The notes below the pieces were generated by a model. It searched no databases. It was not told where the DNA came from and saw only the letters and a program-made list of their open reading frames with translations. From positions 14,435 to 78,434 of the forward strand of contig CANQZC010000001.1 in NCBI GenBank assembly GCA_947628235.1: a DNA stretch of 64,000 nt, given 5' to 3'. Position 1 is the stretch's first letter. Each line of letters opens with the position of its first letter. Positions 19,883 through 47,569 of the stretch are shown here, piece by piece. The stretch is from an uncultured Bacilli bacterium. GTDB taxonomy: Bacteria > Bacillota_I > Bacilli_A > RF39 > UBA660. The position numbers and the translations under genes were made by a program.

Positions 19883-22069
19883 CTATTTTTTCTCTTTCTT
19901 TTCCTCAGTATTTTCTTCTTTTTTAGCATCAATATCATATTTATTGCTTAGTTCTACTTCTAGAGTTTCAATCTCTTCTATCTTGGTAGACGCTTTCACA
20001 CTTTGTTTGGTTACAAAACCATATCCATTCATCGTATATGGAAGTTCTAATAAACTCATATAAGTCGTAAAATCATTCTTAGACCATCCTACTACCTTTT
20101 CTAATGTTCTATTACTTCCATTCGTTACTAAGAAAACTTTATCTCCGGTAACAACGGTTCTTCCAGATTCTGGATATTGTTTTACAATGGTATCGCCATC
20201 TCCTATCGTGATGACAGATAATCCTGCTTCTTTTAATTCTTTTTCTACCGTAGCCGTTTTATTATTGACATAAGATGGTAATACTTTTCGTTTTACATCG
20301 GTAGTAATTTCTACTTCATTATAAATATTTTTGTATTTAGCAATATTTTGAATGACAGATTTTACAGCGGGCGCTAAAGAAGAAGCATACCAAGAAGATG
20401 GCTTTTTCATGGCCGCATAAATAATAATCTCTGGATCATCTTGTGGATACATTCCTGCAAAAGAAATTAAATAGTTTCCATTTCCTTCTAGATAATGTCC
20501 ATTTTCAAAGATTTGAGCTGTTCCTGTTTTACCAATAATATCGAATCCTTCGACAGCATAAGTATGTCCAGGAGCCCAAGTATTATTAATCGCACCATAC
20601 ATTAATTTCTTCATTTTCGCAACGGTTTCTTTCTTCACGATTTGTCCTGTCTTTTCCACTTTAGTTTCCGTTACTTCGCCTGTATTAGTGTTGACAATCT
20701 TCTTAATAATATGTGGTTTTACCATCACACCATCATTGGCAATAATCGTTAAGGCTTGAAGTTGTTGAATCGCAGTAGTAGATACTCCTTGTCCAAAACT
20801 AACCGTTAACCAGTCAATCTCTATTTTTCCATTAAAATCGATAGAACCTGGAAGTTCTCCAGAAAGTTCAATTCCGGTCTTTTCTCCAAATCCATAACTA
20901 TGTAGGCATTCTCTCAAAATGGTTGGACTTAAATATTCCTTCGCTACCGTCATGCTACCAACATTACTAGAATATTGATATCCTTTATCATAAGTAATGT
21001 ATCCCCAACCTTGCGTTCGCCAGTCATGGACAGTTGCTGGTCCTACTTTATAAGAACCTGATTTATACTTCTTACTTCCATCATACTTTCCCGTATCCAT
21101 CGCACATAGATAAGTATAAGTTTTCATAACAGACCCTGGTTCATATCCGTAAGAAATTAAAGGATTTTGATAACTCATATCAGGAGATAAGTTGTTAGGA
21201 TCAAAACTAGGACTTGTCGCACTTCCTAAAATTTCTCCCGTCTTCGCATCCATCGCTGCTAAAATCATCCATTCTGGTTTATATTTCTTAACCGTATCTT
21301 TGACAGCTGTCTCTAGAAATCTTTGAATATTCGAATCGATGGTTAGATAAATATCATTTCCATCAATCGCTTCTACTTTCGTTTCCGGCGTATCTGGAAT
21401 TTGATACCCAGAAATATCTTTTTGATAAGTTAAACTTCCATTCGTACCTTTTAAAAGGTCATTATATCCTGCTTCTACCCCTAGTTCTCCTTTAATTTCT
21501 CCATCCTCTAACATCTTGGCATAACCAACAATGTAAGACGCAAAAGAACCATTCGGATAAAATCTCTTCGTCGATTCGATAAAGTCAATTCCAGGAAGTT
21601 CTAAGTCTTCAATTTGTAATTTGGTAAGTTCCGTTAATTTTGATCCATAAGAACCAAATTCTACTTGATAGACTCCCTCTTTTTGAAGTCGTTCTAACAT
21701 ATAGTCGTAGGGAGCATCTAAGACTTCCGCTAAAGCCTTGGCTGTTTTCTCTTTATCTACTACATGTCTAGGATTTGATTCATCGGTTGTCCGACTAGGA
21801 CTTAAATACGCAATTAAGGTATAAGAAGCTACATTCTGCGCTAATACATCTCCTTCGGAACTATAAATAGTTCCCCGTTTAGCAAGTAGTTCTTTATCTA
21901 CCGTAATTCGATCTTTCGCAAATTTCTTCAAGTCATCTCCGTAGACTTTATTAGAAAGAGAAAGATACGCAAATTGTCCCATTAAGGCCAAAAGGAAAAA
22001 GAGAAAAATAAGTAATACATATTTTGGCTGACGCCAACTTTTTACAACGATATCGTTTTCTCTTTTCAT
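19883..22069 (-). CDS. pbpB: class B penicillin-binding protein with two C-terminal PASTA domains (PBP2B/FtsI-like)
   Basis: Contains SxxK (GSVMK), SSN and KTGT motifs plus two PASTA repeats. Its position after ftsL fits this assignment. Confidence 0.85.
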   Translation of the reverse strand: MKRENDIVVKSWRQPKYVLLIFLFFLLALMGQFAYLSLSNKVYGDDLKKFAKDRITVDKELLAKRGTIYSSEGDVLAQNVASYTLIAYLSPSRTTDESNPRHVVDKEKTAKALAEVLDAPYDYMLERLQKEGVYQVEFGSYGSKLTELTKLQIEDLELPGIDFIESTKRFYPNGSFASYIVGYAKMLEDGEIKGELGVEAGYNDLLKGTNGSLTYQKDISGYQIPDTPETKVEAIDGNDIYLTIDSNIQRFLETAVKDTVKKYKPEWMILAAMDAKTGEILGSATSPSFDPNNLSPDMSYQNPLISYGYEPGSVMKTYTYLCAMDTGKYDGSKKYKSGSYKVGPATVHDWRTQGWGYITYDKGYQYSSNVGSMTVAKEYLSPTILRECLHSYGFGEKTGIELSGELPGSIDFNGKIEIDWLTVSFGQGVSTTAIQQLQALTIIANDGVMVKPHIIKKIVNTNTGEVTETKVEKTGQIVKKETVAKMKKLMYGAINNTWAPGHTYAVEGFDIIGKTGTAQIFENGHYLEGNGNYLISFAGMYPQDDPEIIIYAAMKKPSSWYASSLAPAVKSVIQNIAKYKNIYNEVEITTDVKRKVLPSYVNNKTATVEKELKEAGLSVITIGDGDTIVKQYPESGRTVVTGDKVFLVTNGSNRTLEKVVGWSKNDFTTYMSLLELPYTMNGYGFVTKQSVKASTKIEEIETLEVELSNKYDIDAKKEENTEEKKEKK

Positions 22070-22280
22070 ATCATCACCATATATATTATATCATACTTTA
22101 TTTATTTTGTAGGAGATTCAGCAATAAATATTTTCTGATTGTCATCATCCACCGTGATTCCTCCTCCAAAAAGGAATACTACTGGCAAAGAAAACATACT
22201 ACCATAATACCTTTAATAACATGAATATTCCTGAAGTTCCTAAATTTCTTAAATATGATAAAAGGATATCTATAATTTAG

Positions 22281-22309
22281 TTGCATGTTTCATTATTTTT
22301 TTGTATAAT
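22281..22309 (+). promoter_or_regulatory. sigma-A-type promoter
   Basis: TTGCAT, a 17 nt spacer, then TGtTATAAT. Confidence 0.55.
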
Positions 22310-22335
22310 AAGAAACCATTGAAGGTGAAATATTA

Positions 22336-22458
22336 TGGAAGATATGAACTTAGAAAATTTAAACAGTGAAACACTAATGGATTTAGTTTCTCTTTTAGAG
22401 GGAATGGATGATATCTTAAAAGAAGAATTAGAGAGTGATACGAATGCAAAAAATTGAT
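22336..22458 (+). CDS. small acidic protein (40 aa)
   Basis: MEDMNLENLNSETLMDLVSLLEGMDDILKEELESDTNAKN with RBS GAAGGTGA. It overlaps the start of the next gene. Confidence 0.35.
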
Positions 22459-23544
22459 GAACGGATAAAAAAGATGGATAAAGAGCATGAAGAACTTTTA
22501 AAAAGAGTGAAGGATAGTTTACTTCAAAATCGTGATCTTTTAGATGATGAAATCAACCATTTAAAAGAAGTTTTAAAAATGGAAGAGAACAATATCAAAC
22601 AATATCATGCTATTATTCAAGCTCAAAATTTAATTGTCAGTTTAACAGAAGAAATTTTAGCTTGTAATTCTGTTGATGATATTATAAATATCCGCAAAAA
22701 ATTAAATTATTATATTAACAAAATAAAAACCATTCTCGCTAAAAGAAATATAAGTGAAAATACTATTACAGATTATCAAGAAAAAGTTAGTGGTTTAAGA
22801 AAAGAGATTTCTAGATATGTAAGATATTTAAAACGCGATAAGAATCTATCCATGATTCATAAATTACGTGATAAAGGGGATAAGATGACTCTTGAAGAAC
22901 TGCGTACTTTAAAAAAAGCGATTACGAAAGAAATTGCTTATCATAAAAGAAATTTAGGTAAGAAGGAAGAAACAAAATCATTCTTACCTGTTCCTCTTAC
23001 TTTTCCTAATCTAACAGAAAAAAGTACGATAGAACAACCTATAAAATTTAACTTTTGGCCGAAAAAACCAGAAGAGATTAATCCTCAAGCCTTTCGTATT
23101 AAACTTCCTGCAGAAAAAGAAAGAAGCATGAGTACTCATCCGTTAACTATCGATGATAAAATTCATTTCTTTGAATGTAGCGCTCATAAATTTACGGAAC
23201 AATATCATGTTATCCCAACTCAGGATTATCAAACAACTAAAATAGGAAGAAATATTGTTACTTTCTTTCAAAACTTACCACGCTATTTTCATAATAAAAA
23301 ACTACTTAAAGTGATTCAAAAAGATTATATGATATATTACCGAGGATGTGACTTAGCAAGTTATATAGAATATATAAGACAAAGAAATTCGATTAAACAT
23401 GGCTTAAAATGTATCTTTGATCAATCTTATTTATCTTCTGAAGAAGTAGCTCGTTTAAATAGTCATGAACAATGTTCTTCTTGGTTATTAAATTTCTGTA
23501 ATGAAAGGCATCTAGATTTACCAATTCAATATTATAAAGCATAA
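22435..23544 (+). CDS. hypothetical protein with N-terminal coiled coil
   Basis: 369 aa ORF; no recognisable motif. Confidence 0.5.
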   Translation: MIRMQKIDERIKKMDKEHEELLKRVKDSLLQNRDLLDDEINHLKEVLKMEENNIKQYHAIIQAQNLIVSLTEEILACNSVDDIINIRKKLNYYINKIKTILAKRNISENTITDYQEKVSGLRKEISRYVRYLKRDKNLSMIHKLRDKGDKMTLEELRTLKKAITKEIAYHKRNLGKKEETKSFLPVPLTFPNLTEKSTIEQPIKFNFWPKKPEEINPQAFRIKLPAEKERSMSTHPLTIDDKIHFFECSAHKFTEQYHVIPTQDYQTTKIGRNIVTFFQNLPRYFHNKKLLKVIQKDYMIYYRGCDLASYIEYIRQRNSIKHGLKCIFDQSYLSSEEVARLNSHEQCSSWLLNFCNERHLDLPIQYYKA

Positions 23545-23569
23545 AAAAGCCTATTTAAAGGCTTTTTTA
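23543..23569. terminator. bidirectional rho-independent terminator
   Basis: A6-AGCCTatttaAAGGCT-T6 between convergent genes. Confidence 0.65.
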
Positions 23570-25186
23570 TATTAACTTATATACTTTTGGATTATCTATC
23601 GTCTCGCTTGTTACAATTAATTTTGTATATTTAGATTGTGTTGTTTGTAACATAAATTTAGAATGCGTTAAGCTTTCATTAACAACAATATTCATACCAC
23701 GGAAACCACTTTTCTTTTTAAAAGCATCATCACATAAACGATCAATATAATCCTCACTAAAAACAATCTCAACACCATAATTTCTTTTAAATTTATTATT
23801 TTGAATAACAAATGGAGATAATAATCCTTTTAAAAGAGCTTCCCGCATCATTTCTTTGGTAACTTTATTATATTGAACAAAAAGGTTCCATCGTCCAATA
23901 AATTCATCCGCTAAACCATATTGCTGTAAATCATCGATAGATACCCCTTTTTCCTCCTCTTCTTCCATATTATGTATTCCAATACGATGACTTTTTTTCT
24001 TAAAAATATCTTCAAAAGCTCCTCCACAAGCAACTGTCATCATACTAGTATCAATAATAACAGAATTACCTAACTTATCAATTTCAACATTAAATTTACT
24101 TCCTTCAATAAATTTAAGTAAGGCTTGCTGCGCTCCAATATCACTAACGGCATTTCCACGACTTGCTAACTTATCTACTTCATCAAAGAACACAATAGCT
24201 CTTTCGGTCTTATCAATATTTTTACCACATAACATATATAAATCATTTAAAACATTTAAGACACTTTTACCATGATATCCTTCTTGTACAATCGTATTAC
24301 AATCTACAGTAATAACAGGAACATCCAGTATTTGACCTAATAGTTTAAATAATAAACTTTTACCACATCCTGTTTGTCCTATCACAAAAGGCTTAACAAT
24401 CTCTTCAGGAGTAGTAGCATACATATTATCAAATACTGCACTAACAATCATTTCAACAGCATGATCTTGTCCGATAATACGATTTTTTATATATGCTGTA
24501 GCGCTACTGACATCTATTACGGTAGGCTTTGGACTTTCTTCTACTTTAGGTAAAATTTTTGGTATTTTCACTTCTTTATCATGGACCGTTACCGCTAATA
24601 TTTCTGTACCATCAGGAGAAGTCTTAATCTCACTTACATCCTTGTCTTTTTTTAATCTTTCAATAGCCGATGTTCGGCGAAATAAATTGCCTAATAATTG
24701 TCTTAACTCTTTAGGATTAGATATTTCTAACATTCTTTTTAATTGCCCTTTAGTTAAAGTAACATACCCTTCCCCATCATCAATACGATAAGTAGGTAAA
24801 TGAGTTAAGGATTGAATCTGTAATTTATTCAAGGATATAACATTTATTTGCTTACTTTTTTTATCTATATACCCTAATAAGATAACATCTTTTATCTCAT
24901 CATAAAAGTGTGATAAAGCTTCATAAGTATTTGGTATTTGATATCTATTTTGTAAATCACGCGCTGTAATATCAAAATAATAGGATAAGTCATGACCTGA
25001 TGTAAAACATTCAAAATCTTTACAACTATAAAAAGTATGTCCTGAGTGATCTATAAAATGTCCATCACTTCTATCGATGATTCCCTCTGAATAATTACAA
25101 GGCATAAATAAATATAAATCATCACATATTAACTGTTTTTTATAAATAACAGCAAATACTTCATTAGGTGTACGCATAATCATCAC
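23567..25186 (-). CDS. ClpX-like AAA+ ATPase with novel ~240 aa N-terminal domain replacing the zinc-binding domain
   Basis: Walker A GQTGCGKS, Walker B VFFDEVDKL, and ClpX-like blocks QQALLKFIEGS, ACGGAF, EFIGRW, GFRGMN. The pore loop reads GYHG instead of GYVG. An IGI sequence sits at the IGF-loop position. Confidence 0.65.
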   Translation of the reverse strand: MMIMRTPNEVFAVIYKKQLICDDLYLFMPCNYSEGIIDRSDGHFIDHSGHTFYSCKDFECFTSGHDLSYYFDITARDLQNRYQIPNTYEALSHFYDEIKDVILLGYIDKKSKQINVISLNKLQIQSLTHLPTYRIDDGEGYVTLTKGQLKRMLEISNPKELRQLLGNLFRRTSAIERLKKDKDVSEIKTSPDGTEILAVTVHDKEVKIPKILPKVEESPKPTVIDVSSATAYIKNRIIGQDHAVEMIVSAVFDNMYATTPEEIVKPFVIGQTGCGKSLLFKLLGQILDVPVITVDCNTIVQEGYHGKSVLNVLNDLYMLCGKNIDKTERAIVFFDEVDKLASRGNAVSDIGAQQALLKFIEGSKFNVEIDKLGNSVIIDTSMMTVACGGAFEDIFKKKSHRIGIHNMEEEEEKGVSIDDLQQYGLADEFIGRWNLFVQYNKVTKEMMREALLKGLLSPFVIQNNKFKRNYGVEIVFSEDYIDRLCDDAFKKKSGFRGMNIVVNESLTHSKFMLQTTQSKYTKLIVTSETIDNPKVYKLI

Positions 25187-25248
25187 TCCACAGTTTTTTA
25201 TTATATAACAGAAACCATTATTTCACAATAAAAAATAGACTTTTACGT

Positions 25249-25542
25249 CTATTTATTTATTACCACAATATTCTCATTATTATAGGCGAGGCCTAACTCT
25301 TTAATTACCCCACTTACATTTTCATAGGAAGTAAGTTCATTGACTTGCATCGTTAAAGATTCATTCTTCTTTTCTTGATTTTCAATCTCATAATTCATCT
25401 TTTCAATGTTCATCTTCATATTACTAATTTGCGCTCCAAAGAAAATCTTCGTCGCAAAAAGTGCGGTGATAGAAAGAAGTCCTACCGTATAAACTAATTT
25501 TTCCTTCTTTGTAAATTTTGCTTTTCTCTTTTTTTGTTTCAT
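25249..25542 (-). CDS. ftsL: cell division protein FtsL-like
   Basis: Small bitopic coiled-coil protein located between rsmH and pbpB. Confidence 0.6.
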   Translation of the reverse strand: MKQKKRKAKFTKKEKLVYTVGLLSITALFATKIFFGAQISNMKMNIEKMNYEIENQEKKNESLTMQVNELTSYENVSGVIKELGLAYNNENIVVINK

Positions 25543-47493: not shown

Positions 47494-47569
47494 GTCTCCT
47501 TAGCTCAGTTGGTAGAGCAACAGACTCTTAATCTGTGGGTCTAGGGTTCGAGCCCCTAAGGGGACACCA
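47494..47569 (+). tRNA. tRNA-Lys (anticodon CUU), CCA encoded
   Basis: Cloverleaf: acceptor GTCTCCT/AGGGGAC, anticodon loop cuCUUaa, T-arm GGTTCGAGCCC. Confidence 0.85.

What the first reader, a model, noticed from the sequence alone, without database searches (positions are those of the whole stretch)
23567..25186. ClpX paralog with replaced N-domain and altered pore loop embedded in the dcw cluster
The C-terminal 300 aa carry the full ClpX-type AAA+ module, including an IGF-like (IGI) loop and a sensor-2 region. The zinc-binding N-domain is replaced by a ~240 aa domain of unknown type, and the pore-1 loop reads GYHG rather than GYVG. The gene sits between ftsL and pbpB, convergent with an unknown 369 aa gene, which is an unusual insertion into a normally compact dcw cluster.
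Basis: partly seen in the sequence, partly recalled or inferred. Interest (0 to 1): 0.55.

Follow-up and report, generated by a model that had tools for sequence, protein, structure and literature searches.

The report
ClpX-derived unfoldase cassette inside dcw cluster
This gene encodes an intact protein-unfolding motor derived from ClpX that carries a new, unclassifiable front domain; it belongs to an undescribed family in uncultured gut Bacilli and reached the cell-division cluster only recently, as part of a 3 kb inserted gene cassette.

Summary
Window 23567-25177(-) encodes a 536-aa protein (539 aa from the upstream GTG). It has a ClpX-type AAA+ module with a GYHG pore-1 loop, an IGI tripeptide in place of IGF, no zinc-binding domain and no RKH loop. 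Its ~200-aa N-terminal domain matches nothing in Pfam, PDB or BFVD.

It is one member of an unnamed family: 170 clusters at 50% identity, and all genome hits are uncultured gut Bacilli MAGs. Most members keep GYVG and [ILMV]GF, so GYHG and IGI are late changes in a small subclade.

The dcw position is not conserved. The family's usual locus in this clade is cysS - Zn_peptidase_2 - clpX-like - sufCDS. In the window, a self-contained 3.1-kb cassette (clpX-like plus orf40/orf369, with its own promoter and terminator) sits in what is a 28-bp ftsL-pbp2B spacer in the nearest relative. It is flanked by a 10-bp direct repeat, and four independent assemblies confirm the ftsL-side junction. The cassette is 90% nt identical to an L008-type locus, against 73-76% for the flanks (dS 0.40 vs 1.2-2.3). 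That points to recent lateral acquisition. The gene is under purifying selection (omega 0.07).

Whether a canonical ClpX or ClpP coexists could not be tested, so "paralog" remains unproven.

The parts
23567..25177 (-). ClpX-derived AAA+ unfoldase gene (536 aa from the ATG at 25177; the mechanical ORF extends to a GTG at 25186, 539 aa; residue numbers in this report use the 539-aa numbering)
24566..25165 (-). N-terminal domain (residues 8-207): beta-rich subdomain, helices and a small beta-sheet; no known family or fold match
   Evidence: pLDDT 86-91; no Pfam or PHROG hit; Foldseek PDB/BFVD best E 0.1, TM <= 0.2; PDB profile search nothing below E 0.19; family profile hit E 1.6e-77
24497..24565 (-). 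Variable, disordered linker (residues ~208-230) between the N-domain and the motor
   Evidence: pLDDT below 50 at 209-222; length-variable alignment columns
23570..24496 (-). ClpX-type AAA+ module (large and small domains), residues 231-539
24356..24379 (-). Walker A, GQTGCGKS
   Evidence: core residues invariant in the family
24269..24280 (-). Pore-1 loop GYHG (Tyr invariant in the window clade; His replaces the canonical Val)
24170..24196 (-). Walker B, IVFFDEVDK
23975..23983 (-). IGI tripeptide at the IGF-loop position (Gly invariant in the window clade; Phe replaced by Ile)
   Evidence: the loop is disordered in the model (residues 400-410)
25200..25228 (-). Promoter-like site TTGTGA-17-TATAAT carried inside the cassette, upstream of the ClpX-like gene
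   Evidence: conserved in the L008 donor-type locus
23540..23571 (.). 13-bp-stem hairpin between the two convergent genes, acting as a bidirectional terminator
22435..23544 (+). orf369, an uncharacterized protein that travelled with the ClpX-like gene in the cassette
22335..22457 (+). Acidic 40-aa ORF overlapping the start of orf369; the same arrangement is seen at orf369 homologs elsewhere
22108..25249 (.). Inserted cassette relative to the empty ftsL-pbp2B site in L057; positions 22257-25262 are 90% nt identical to the L008-type cysS-suf locus
22097..22106 (+). Right copy of the 10-bp direct repeat TTTATTTATT flanking the insert
25252..25261 (+). Left copy of the 10-bp direct repeat TTTATTTATT (within the 3' end of ftsL)
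25249..25542 (-). ftsL (DivIC family), upstream flank of the insertion
19883..22069 (-). pbp2B (PBP_dimer, Transpeptidase, PASTA), downstream flank of the insertion

Best explanation
The gene encodes an active, selection-maintained, single-ring AAA+ protein unfoldase that descends from ClpX. It belongs to a distinct, unnamed family found so far only in uncultured gut Bacilli.

In this family the ClpX zinc-binding domain is replaced by a ~200-aa domain of no recognisable fold. That domain is tethered by a flexible linker to a ClpX-type motor that has lost the RKH loops.

Shown: the architecture, the intact ATPase motifs, the family's extent, purifying selection, and the history of the locus.

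Inferred: the protein forms a hexamer. The N-domain selects substrates or adaptors. Substrate is pulled through the pore by the invariant Tyr. In most family members the substrate is handed to ClpP through [ILMV]GF loops.

In the window's small subclade the loop reads IGI and the pore loop GYHG. ClpP docking and substrate grip are therefore probably weakened or retuned rather than canonical.

The gene lies in the dcw cluster because a self-contained 3.1-kb cassette was inserted there recently. The cassette holds the ClpX-like gene with its own promoter, a shared bidirectional terminator, and orf40/orf369. It was copied from an L008-like cysS - Zn_peptidase_2 - clpX-like - orf369 - sufC locus. 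It landed in the 28-bp ftsL-pbp2B spacer, most likely by lateral transfer, and left a 10-bp flanking direct repeat. The dcw position is therefore an accident of insertion and not a conserved functional link.
For: ClpX derivation:
- NCBIfam ClpX is the best hit (160 bits).
- PDB ClpX E 4.8e-33.
- The Foldseek top 50 hits are all ClpX.
- Walker A/B, Arg finger and sensor-2 are invariant.

Family:
- 23 full-length homologs.
- The N-domain profile finds 170 clusters, always at the N-terminus and always with an AAA+ module.
- Genome hits are all uncultured Bacilli gut MAGs.
- Across the family GYVG is 52 of 112, [ILMV]GF is near-universal and RKH is absent.

New N-domain: no Pfam, PHROG, PDB or BFVD match, despite pLDDT 87.

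Selection: omega 0.07 against the L008 copy.

Relocation:
- The ancestral locus is conserved in L001-L013, L053-L056, L058 and L059.
- L057 shows the empty site.
- The 3.0-kb block is 90% nt identical to L008, with no other similarity between the window and L008.
- The ftsL junction is present in four independent contigs.
- The 10-bp repeat occurs only 4 times in 64 kb, and two of those copies sit at the insert edges.
- The cassette carries its own promoter and terminator.

Recent transfer:
- Cassette dS is 0.40, against 1.2-2.3 for flanking genes versus the nearest relative.
- The best PBP2B in the database is 78% identical.
- Sister loci with SufC 78-84% identity have a ClpX-like protein only 54-59% identical to L008's, whereas the window's is 94.6%.
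Against: - No ClpP gene was located. None lies in the window or in any fetched locus, so the ClpP partnership is inferred only from the loop motif.
- In E. coli ClpX, F270L, I268L and V274A cause severe ClpP-binding defects (PMC7112951). The window's IGI may therefore not dock ClpP at all.
- The family evolves very fast for a housekeeping unfoldase: 36-48% identity where CysS is 75-85%. This fits poorly with a conserved core role.
- That the donor lineage (L008 type) is as distant from the window organism as L057 is inferred indirectly. The inference rests on finding no closer PBP2B and on GTDB representative hits. The database did not return the window's own PBP2B, so it is incomplete.
- The pbp2B-side junction has no independent assembly support.
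- The function of the N-domain is unknown.
Confidence: 0.65

Rival explanations
1. It is the lineage's only ClpX: the functional ortholog, whose zinc-binding domain was swapped for another recognition domain, doing ordinary ClpXP housekeeping proteolysis.
For: - One copy per locus in a conserved housekeeping neighbourhood (cysS, suf, mutL, frr) across the clade.
- The IGF-type motif is retained across the family.
- Strong purifying selection.
- No second ClpX-like gene in the window or the loci.
Against: - Canonical ClpX proteins are 56-74% identical to each other, while this family is about 30% identical to them and to its own subclades.
- All members score 155-208 bits against a cutoff of 359.
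- The RKH loop, described in PMC7112951 as unique to ClpX-family enzymes and critical for substrate recognition, is absent.
- The gene moves as a cassette between lineages.
- The window and loci cover only a small part of any genome, so absence of a second ClpX there proves little.
Confidence: 0.3
2. In the window's subclade the protein is a ClpP-independent remodelling chaperone: it unfolds or disassembles targets chosen by the N-domain without degrading them.
For: - The Phe of the IGF tripeptide is lost only in the window, L008-type, P0002 and P0003 proteins (IGI/IGL).
- F270L in E. coli ClpX gives a severe ClpP-binding defect (PMC7112951).
- The hydrophobic residue four positions after the tripeptide is also missing.
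- The ClpI family sets a precedent for subclasses with and without LGF motifs (PMC10149685).
Against: - Ile or Leu at that position is still hydrophobic.
- The Gly is invariant in the window clade and the loop is kept at similar length.
- The rest of the family keeps [ILMV]GF.
- There is no biochemical evidence either way.
Confidence: 0.25
3. The dcw position reflects function: the protein regulates divisome or cell-wall proteins (as ClpX acts on FtsZ in other bacteria), and selection favoured co-location with ftsL and pbp2B.
For: - It sits between ftsL and pbp2B on the same strand.
- In the distant loci L014, L015 and L019 the gene has the same upstream ORF pattern, and in L019 the ORF immediately upstream is a MurD-like ligase gene.
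- ClpX has documented roles in cell division in S. aureus (bioRxiv 10.1101/2023.08.22.554348, title and abstract).
Against: - The dcw position is seen only for this sequence type. The nearest relative has an empty 28-bp spacer, and all other clade members use the cysS-suf locus.
- The cassette brings its own promoter and terminator and an unrelated convergent gene.
Confidence: 0.07
4. The cassette is a selfish or defence-type mobile module in which the AAA+ ATPase works together with orf369.
For: - The two genes moved together.
- The insert is flanked by a direct repeat like a target-site duplication.
- GC drops to 0.277 over 22-24 kb.
- orf369 homologs sit at variable loci.
- There are weak PADLOC hits to IetA and DruC.
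Against: - PADLOC and IteA scores are negligible (20.8 bits against a cutoff of 510).
- There are no viral-contig relatives.
- No transposase, integrase or terminal inverted repeats are present.
- orf369 is adjacent to the ClpX-like gene only in the L008/window lineage; its homologs elsewhere have no such neighbour, and sister loci lack it.
- The family's normal context is housekeeping genes.
Confidence: 0.08
5. Assembly chimera or decaying pseudogene.
For: The source is a MAG; the block has lower GC and a different origin from its flanks.
Against: - Four independent contigs from different samples span rsmH-ftsL-clpX-like at 97-99.8% identity.
- The reading frame is intact, with omega 0.07.
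Confidence: 0.02

Closest known systems
ClpX (E. coli / B. subtilis type; NCBIfam NF003745, TIGR00382)
   Same: - Single-ring HCLR-clade AAA+ module with the ClpX large- and small-domain fold.
- Walker A/B, Arg finger and sensor-2 present.
- Tyr-bearing pore-1 loop.
- A surface loop with a hydrophobic-Gly-hydrophobic tripeptide at the IGF position.
   Different: - No C4 zinc-binding domain; a ~200-aa unrelated domain takes its place.
- No RKH loop.
- Pore-1 is GYHG rather than GYVG.
- The tripeptide is IGI rather than IGF, in a shorter loop.
- It scores less than half the equivalog cutoff.
- Only about 30% identity to canonical ClpX, and it evolves fast.
ClpI of Actinomycetota (PMC10149685)
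   Same: A lineage-restricted class of Clp unfoldase recognised bioinformatically. It has intact motors, a variable N-terminal domain, and subclasses that keep or lose the ClpP-docking LGF motif.
   Different: ClpI is a double-ring ClpB/ClpC-like enzyme in Actinomycetota. This family is single-ring, ClpX-derived, and found in gut Bacilli.
KYR-type pore-1 loops of the D1 rings of ClpA/ClpB-class enzymes (PMC8666677)
   Same: The pore-loop Tyr is followed by a polar or charged residue rather than Val. In ClpA such loops are critical for substrate engagement.
   Different: Those loops sit in the D1 ring of double-ring enzymes, backed by a GYVG D2 ring. Here GY[HEKQD]G is the only pore-1 loop of a single ring.
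HslU
   Same: Sister HCLR AAA+ unfoldase; it is the second-best family hit.
   Different: 50 bits against a cutoff of 362; there is no I-domain insertion, and the small domain and loops align with ClpX rather than HslU.
SpoVK/CbbX/EccA-type AAA+ proteins that carry the same N-domain (P0088, P0095, P0101)
   Same: They share the first ~120 residues of the N-domain at the extreme N-terminus (E about 1e-9 to 1e-11).
   Different: Their motor belongs to a different AAA+ clade (GNPGTGKT; TIGR02881 184-202 bits). This shows the N-domain is a portable module.

Membership tests
ClpX (NCBIfam equivalog NF003745 / TIGR00382) | Whole-protein score at or above the curated cutoff | tested here: not met
   160.2 bits vs 359 and 140.3 vs 370.75. 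Other family members score 155-208 bits.
ClpX | N-terminal C4 zinc-binding domain (PF06689) | tested here: not met
   No Pfam hit in residues 1-260. Only two partly conserved Cys columns and no Cys4 set. The modelled fold is a ~200-aa alpha/beta domain.
ClpX | ClpX-type AAA+ large and small domains with Walker A/B, Arg finger and sensor-2 | tested here: met
   PDB ClpX E 4.8e-33 over residues 207-532. Foldseek top 50 all ClpX, target TM 0.67-0.84. Motifs invariant.
ClpX | GYVG pore-1 loop | tested here: not met
   GYHG in the window. The Tyr is retained. The family majority is GYVG, 52 of 112.
ClpX | RKH loop | tested here: not met
   The aligned segment reads EIDKLGNS, and no family member has RKH, whereas all canonical controls have GGRKHP. 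PMC7112951 describes the loop as unique to ClpX-family enzymes.
ClpX | IGF-loop tripeptide that docks into ClpP clefts | tested here: inconclusive
   IGI at the aligned position; the Gly is invariant in the window clade and the Phe is lost. F270L is severely defective in E. coli. The rest of the family keeps [ILMV]GF.
ClpX | Physical assembly with ClpP and ATP-dependent degradation | not testable with these tools
   No ClpP gene in the window or the loci.
Unnamed N-domain/ClpX-like family of gut Bacilli (defined here) | N-terminal ~190-aa domain matching profile A2, followed by a linker and a ClpX-type AAA_2 module | tested here: met
   Window hit E 1.6e-77 over profile positions 3-190. 170 clusters with the same layout.
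HslU (TIGR00390) | Score at or above the cutoff, with the I-domain | tested here: not met
   50.3 bits vs 362.45.
Anti-phage AAA+ ATPases (IteA/IetA, DolB; PADLOC, NCBIfam NF042959) | Significant match and a defence-system partner gene | tested here: not met
   20.8 bits vs 510. PADLOC hits are at most 25.5 bits and cover only the P-loop region. No IetS-like protease neighbour.
Transposon or insertion sequence | Transposase or integrase gene and terminal inverted repeats | tested here: not met
   Only three ORFs lie in the insert, none with a Pfam hit to such enzymes. No terminal inverted repeats.
Transposon or insertion sequence | Target-site duplication | tested here: met
   The 10-bp TTTATTTATT lies at both edges of the insert. 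The single-copy sequence in L057 aligns to both edges. This is also compatible with microhomology-mediated recombination.

The most novel reading that the evidence does not exclude
A whole lineage of uncultured gut Bacilli may have replaced canonical ClpX with this fast-evolving unfoldase, which lacks the RKH loop and carries a swapped N-domain. That N-domain would then be a new, portable AAA+ substrate-recognition module, since it is also fused to SpoVK-type motors. The window's subclade (GYHG, IGI) would be in the process of leaving ClpP and becoming a stand-alone remodeller that spreads between species as a small gene cassette.
Probability: 0.2. Interest if true: 0.75.

Novelty: new variant of a known kind. 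Interest (0 to 1): 0.52.

Why it matters
ClpX is among the best-understood AAA+ unfoldases, and its zinc-binding domain, RKH loops, GYVG pore loops and IGF loops are treated as hallmarks. This family keeps the motor but discards two of those hallmarks, and in the window's subclade it alters the other two.

- It offers a natural experiment on which ClpX features are needed for substrate choice, grip and ClpP docking.
- Its ~200-aa N-domain has no match in any domain or structure library searched here (Pfam, PHROGs, PDB, BFVD) and pairs with two different AAA+ clades. It is a candidate new recognition module whose targets are unknown.
- The locus is a clean, datable example of a small promoter-carrying cassette inserting into the core of a division cluster without a recognisable mobility gene.

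The practical impact is modest, because the hosts are uncultured.

Tried and rejected
1. Divergent zinc-binding domain: rejected. There is no PF06689 hit and no conserved Cys4 set, and the predicted fold is different.
2. Known fold for the N-domain: Foldseek against PDB and BFVD and a profile search of PDB sequences gave nothing (best E about 0.1, TM <= 0.2). The weak PCNA and proteasome-beta hits are noise.
3. Phage origin: no viral-contig relatives. PHROG hits cover only the AAA+ part, and the N-domain has none.
4. Defence system: PADLOC and IteA hits are negligible.
5. orf369 as a conserved partner: rejected. Its homologs sit in unrelated contexts, sister loci lack it, and it is not related to the 445-aa neighbour in L002-L004.
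6. Misassembly: rejected for the ftsL junction.
7. Looking up the window's own ClpX-like protein and orf369 by exact sequence failed; they are not on record.
8. Searching for ClpP or a canonical ClpX in the window and 736 kb of fetched loci found none. This is uninformative about whole genomes.
9. Zn_peptidase_2 as an obligatory proteolytic partner: considered because of conserved adjacency. However, the cassette moved without it, it is fragmented in L002, and it is not adjacent in the distant clade.
10. Family monophyly against canonical ClpX could not be settled with a midpoint-rooted NJ tree.
11. The literature search found no description of this family.
Full report
**1. The observation**

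The ORF at 23567-25186(-) is real (539 aa). A GGAG sits 8 nt before the ATG at 25177, and the database protein P0001 is 536 aa, so the true start is probably that ATG. Residue numbers below use the 539-aa ORF.

Pfam sees only AAA_2 and AAA at residues 263-433 and nothing in the first 260 residues. NCBIfam's best hits are the two ClpX equivalogs, but far below cutoff: 160 bits against 359 and 140 against 371. HslU scores 50 against 362. The best solved-structure match is E. coli ClpX (8e91_A, E 4.8e-33, residues 207-532).

Translation of exact coordinates confirms every reported motif: Walker A GQTGCGKS, pore-1 GYHG, Walker B IVFFDEVDK, IGI at the IGF position, Arg finger EFIGRW and sensor-2 SGFRGM.

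The neighbours are as described: mraZ, rsmH and ftsL (DivIC family) upstream, pbp2B (PBP_dimer, Transpeptidase, PASTA) downstream, and a convergent 369-aa ORF with no Pfam hit.

**2. A family, not a one-off**

A homolog search returned P0001 (100%) and 22 further full-length proteins of 534-570 aa at 35-59% identity. None is named by its source, and all show the same layout.

A profile of the N-terminal 195 residues was searched against 1.84 billion representatives. It found 170 clusters at E <= 1e-3 and 33 at E <= 1e-10. The match is always at the extreme N-terminus of proteins of about 480-790 aa, apart from fragments. All ten proteins sampled carry an AAA_2/AAA module, and the longer ones simply have longer linkers.

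The genome collection places every full-length relative in uncultured Bacilli (or Bacillales/Firmicutes) MAGs from rabbit, goat, sheep and deer gut; the one record titled Roseburia sp. is also a binned metagenome genome and may be mislabelled.

All members tested score 155-208 bits on the ClpX equivalog. L020, a Clostridia protein with a ClpX-type N-terminal Cys motif, scores 320. Canonical ClpX motors are 56-74% identical to each other. This family is about 30% identical to them, and about 30% between its own subclades.

**3. Motifs across the family**

In the window's clade, Walker A/B, Arg finger R432, sensor-2 R496, pore-loop Y304 and G403 of the IGF-like tripeptide are all invariant.

Across 112 full-length members the pore-1 loop is GYVG in 52, GYEG in 15, GYKG in 7, GYIG in 6, GYQG in 5 and GYHG in only 2.

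An alignment with E. coli and other canonical ClpX shows an [ILMV]GF tripeptide in nearly all ClpX-type members. L014, L015, L017 and L019 have IGF, in L014, L015 and L017 as IGFG with a hydrophobic residue four positions after the Phe, as in E. coli. Only the window/L008 type, P0002 and P0003 have lost the Phe (IGI, IGL, IGI). No member has the RKH motif that all canonical controls carry.

GYHG and IGI are therefore late changes in a small subclade of a family that began with canonical pore and docking loops.

[quoted passage not shown] It also describes the RKH loop as unique to ClpX-family enzymes and important for substrate recognition. PMC8666677 shows that polar residues after the pore Tyr are normal in KYR-type D1 loops, which are critical for substrate engagement.

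**4. The N-domain**

AlphaFold models are confident: pLDDT 83.8 for the full protein and 87.2 for the domain alone. They show:
- a long beta-hairpin (residues 8-38);
- further strands and helices to about residue 127;
- a second small beta/alpha unit;
- a long helix (158-182);
- a three-stranded sheet ending near residue 207;
- a disordered linker (209-222).

The IGF-like loop (400-410) is also disordered, as expected for a docking loop.

Foldseek found nothing for the N-domain in PDB or BFVD (best E about 0.1, TM <= 0.2). A profile search of PDB sequences found nothing below E 0.19. PHROGs gave no hit for the domain. There is no conserved Cys4 set, so it is not a divergent zinc-binding domain.

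About ten profile hits attach the first ~120 residues of the domain to a different motor, of SpoVK/CbbX/EccA type (GNPGTGKT; TIGR02881 184-202 bits). The domain is therefore a portable module that recurrently pairs with AAA+ engines. This is the main reason to read it as a substrate- or adaptor-recognition domain, which is an inference. The full-length model's C-terminal part matches only ClpX chains.

**5. The locus**

In every other member of the window's clade the gene lies in the order cysS - Zn_peptidase_2 - (sometimes an unknown 445-aa gene) - clpX-like - (HIT gene, orf369 or nothing) - sufC-sufD-sufS - ... - mutL - frr. The one exception is L005-L007, where truB and other genes rather than suf follow the clpX-like gene.

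The closest relative, L008, has a protein 94% identical to the window's (94.6% against P0001) and the same order. Only a 3,013-bp block is shared: L008 7926-10935 against window 25262-22257, at 90% nt identity. There is no other similarity between L008 and the 64-kb window.

The block begins at the stop codon of the upstream gene. It carries a small hairpin, a TTGTGA-17-TATAAT promoter, the clpX-like gene, a 13-bp-stem bidirectional terminator, orf369, the acidic 40-aa ORF that overlaps orf369's start, and about 190 bp upstream of orf369.

L057 (GCA_947626275.1) is the nearest relative by PBP2B (78% aa, the best hit in the database). It is collinear with the window from the GGDEF gene through recX, prsA, mraZ, rsmH, ftsL, pbp2B, the LysM hydrolase and beyond. 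There, ftsL and pbp2B are 28 bp apart. The window's insert is therefore about 22108-25249.

The single L057 sequence at the junction aligns to both edges of the insert. The 10-mer TTTATTTATT occurs only four times in the window, and two of those copies, on the same strand, lie exactly at the edges (22097-22106 and 25252-25261). The insert has no transposase and no terminal inverted repeats.

Four independent contigs (Logan DRR848987, DRR848734 and SRR29273032; ENA ERZ27249068) reproduce rsmH-ftsL-clpX-like at 97-99.8% identity. The ftsL-side junction is therefore not an assembly artefact.

**6. Age and direction of the move**

Database proteins fall into two discrete types. The window type is seen only in the dcw context. 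The L008 type, about 94.7% identical, is seen only in the cysS-suf context.

Between the two types the clpX-like gene has dN 0.028, dS 0.40 and omega 0.07. orf369 has omega 0.23 and dS 0.37. The flanking rsmH, mraZ, ftsL and pbp2B have dS 1.2-2.3 against L057, and the flanks are only 73-76% nt identical.

Within the clade this gene is normally the fastest-evolving one: 36-48% identity where CysS is 75-85% and SufS 78-84%. The sister loci L058 and L059 (SufC 78-84%, CysS 77% to L008) have a clpX-like protein only 54-59% identical to L008's, and they lack orf369.

A 94.6% match that includes orf369 and the intergenic DNA therefore indicates a recent copy taken from an L008-like locus that already held orf369. 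Lateral transfer is the most likely route.

The caveat is that the link between L057 and the L008 organism is indirect. It rests on finding no closer PBP2B in the database and no intermediate hit among the GTDB representatives. The database also failed to return the window's own PBP2B.

**7. What could not be settled**

No ClpP and no second ClpX-like gene lie in the window or in the 736 kb of fetched loci.

So "paralog" versus "sole ClpX" is open, as is whether the window organism still has a native copy at its own cysS-suf locus.

**8. Verdict**

The finding is real and more interesting at the family level than at the locus level. It is a new variant of a known kind: a ClpX-derived unfoldase family with an unclassifiable, portable N-domain, no RKH loop, and, in this subclade, a non-canonical pore loop and docking tripeptide.

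The dcw embedding is a recent cassette insertion with no conserved functional meaning.

The literature searches found no description of this family. The nearest analogue in kind is ClpI of Actinomycetota (PMC10149685).

Noticed in passing
L015:7791-8147(-), L016:9709-10083(-), L017:9164-9505(-), L018:9734-10084(-), L019:9032-9433(-): In the distant clade of the family, a small ORF (113-133 aa) lies convergent to the ClpX-like gene, abutting or slightly overlapping its 3' end, in all five loci. It has a basic KEFKxLKK...KK C-terminal tail and no Pfam hit. It is homologous across the loci (26-81% identity) even though the upstream neighbours differ. It is a candidate partner, adaptor or substrate. 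It is absent from the window and the window's clade.
   Followed up: partly
proteins P0088, P0095, P0101: The first ~120 residues of the N-domain also occur at the N-terminus of SpoVK/CbbX/EccA-type AAA+ ATPases. The domain therefore pairs with two different AAA+ clades.
   Followed up: partly
window 22335-22457 (+): A highly acidic 40-aa ORF overlaps the start of orf369 by 23 nt. The same small overlapping ORF (37-40 aa) precedes orf369 homologs in L053, L060 and L061, which suggests a conserved two-gene unit.
   Followed up: partly
window 22435-23544 (+): orf369 belongs to a small uncharacterized family (about 22 clusters, 34-44% identity, no Pfam hit) that sits in unrelated genomic contexts. 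Residues 89-170 weakly resemble the archaeal plasmid-partition protein AspA (E 0.003).
   Followed up: partly
window 22108-22256: About 150 bp at the pbp2B-side end of the insert is homologous neither to the L008-type donor locus nor to the empty site in L057. Its origin is unknown.
   Followed up: no
window 22070-22107 (-) and L057:7257-7286: An extended -10-like element (TGATATAAT in the window, TGTTATAAT in L057) lies just upstream of the pbp2B ribosome-binding site and is preserved on the pbp2B side of the insertion. pbp2B may therefore keep its own promoter despite the terminator-bearing insert.
   Followed up: no
L002:3834-4550 vs L003/L004:3885-4550: The Zn_peptidase_2 gene upstream of the ClpX-like gene is split into 160-aa and 66-aa fragments in one assembly (L002) but is an intact 221-aa gene in two others with the same ClpX-like protein.
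   Followed up: no
L008:4174-5796 and counterparts in L002, L005, L009, L010, L012, L013: An unknown gene of 540-562 aa with no Pfam hit is conserved immediately upstream of cysS throughout the clade (38-53% identity). It evolves as fast as the ClpX-like gene.
   Followed up: no
window 47494-47566 (+): A single tRNA gene lies on the + strand in a window where nearly all long ORFs are on the - strand. It is the only Rfam hit in the 64 kb.
   Followed up: no
window 18891-19874 (-) and 12956-14959 (-): Beyond pbp2B this lineage's 'dcw' region continues with a LysM/cell-wall hydrolase, a CDP-alcohol phosphatidyltransferase, acyltransferases and an AMP-binding enzyme, judged from the Pfam labels on the collinear L057 genes. 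The usual murE-mraY-murD-ftsW genes are not there, so the conserved dcw core here is only mraZ-rsmH-ftsL-pbp2B.
   Followed up: partly
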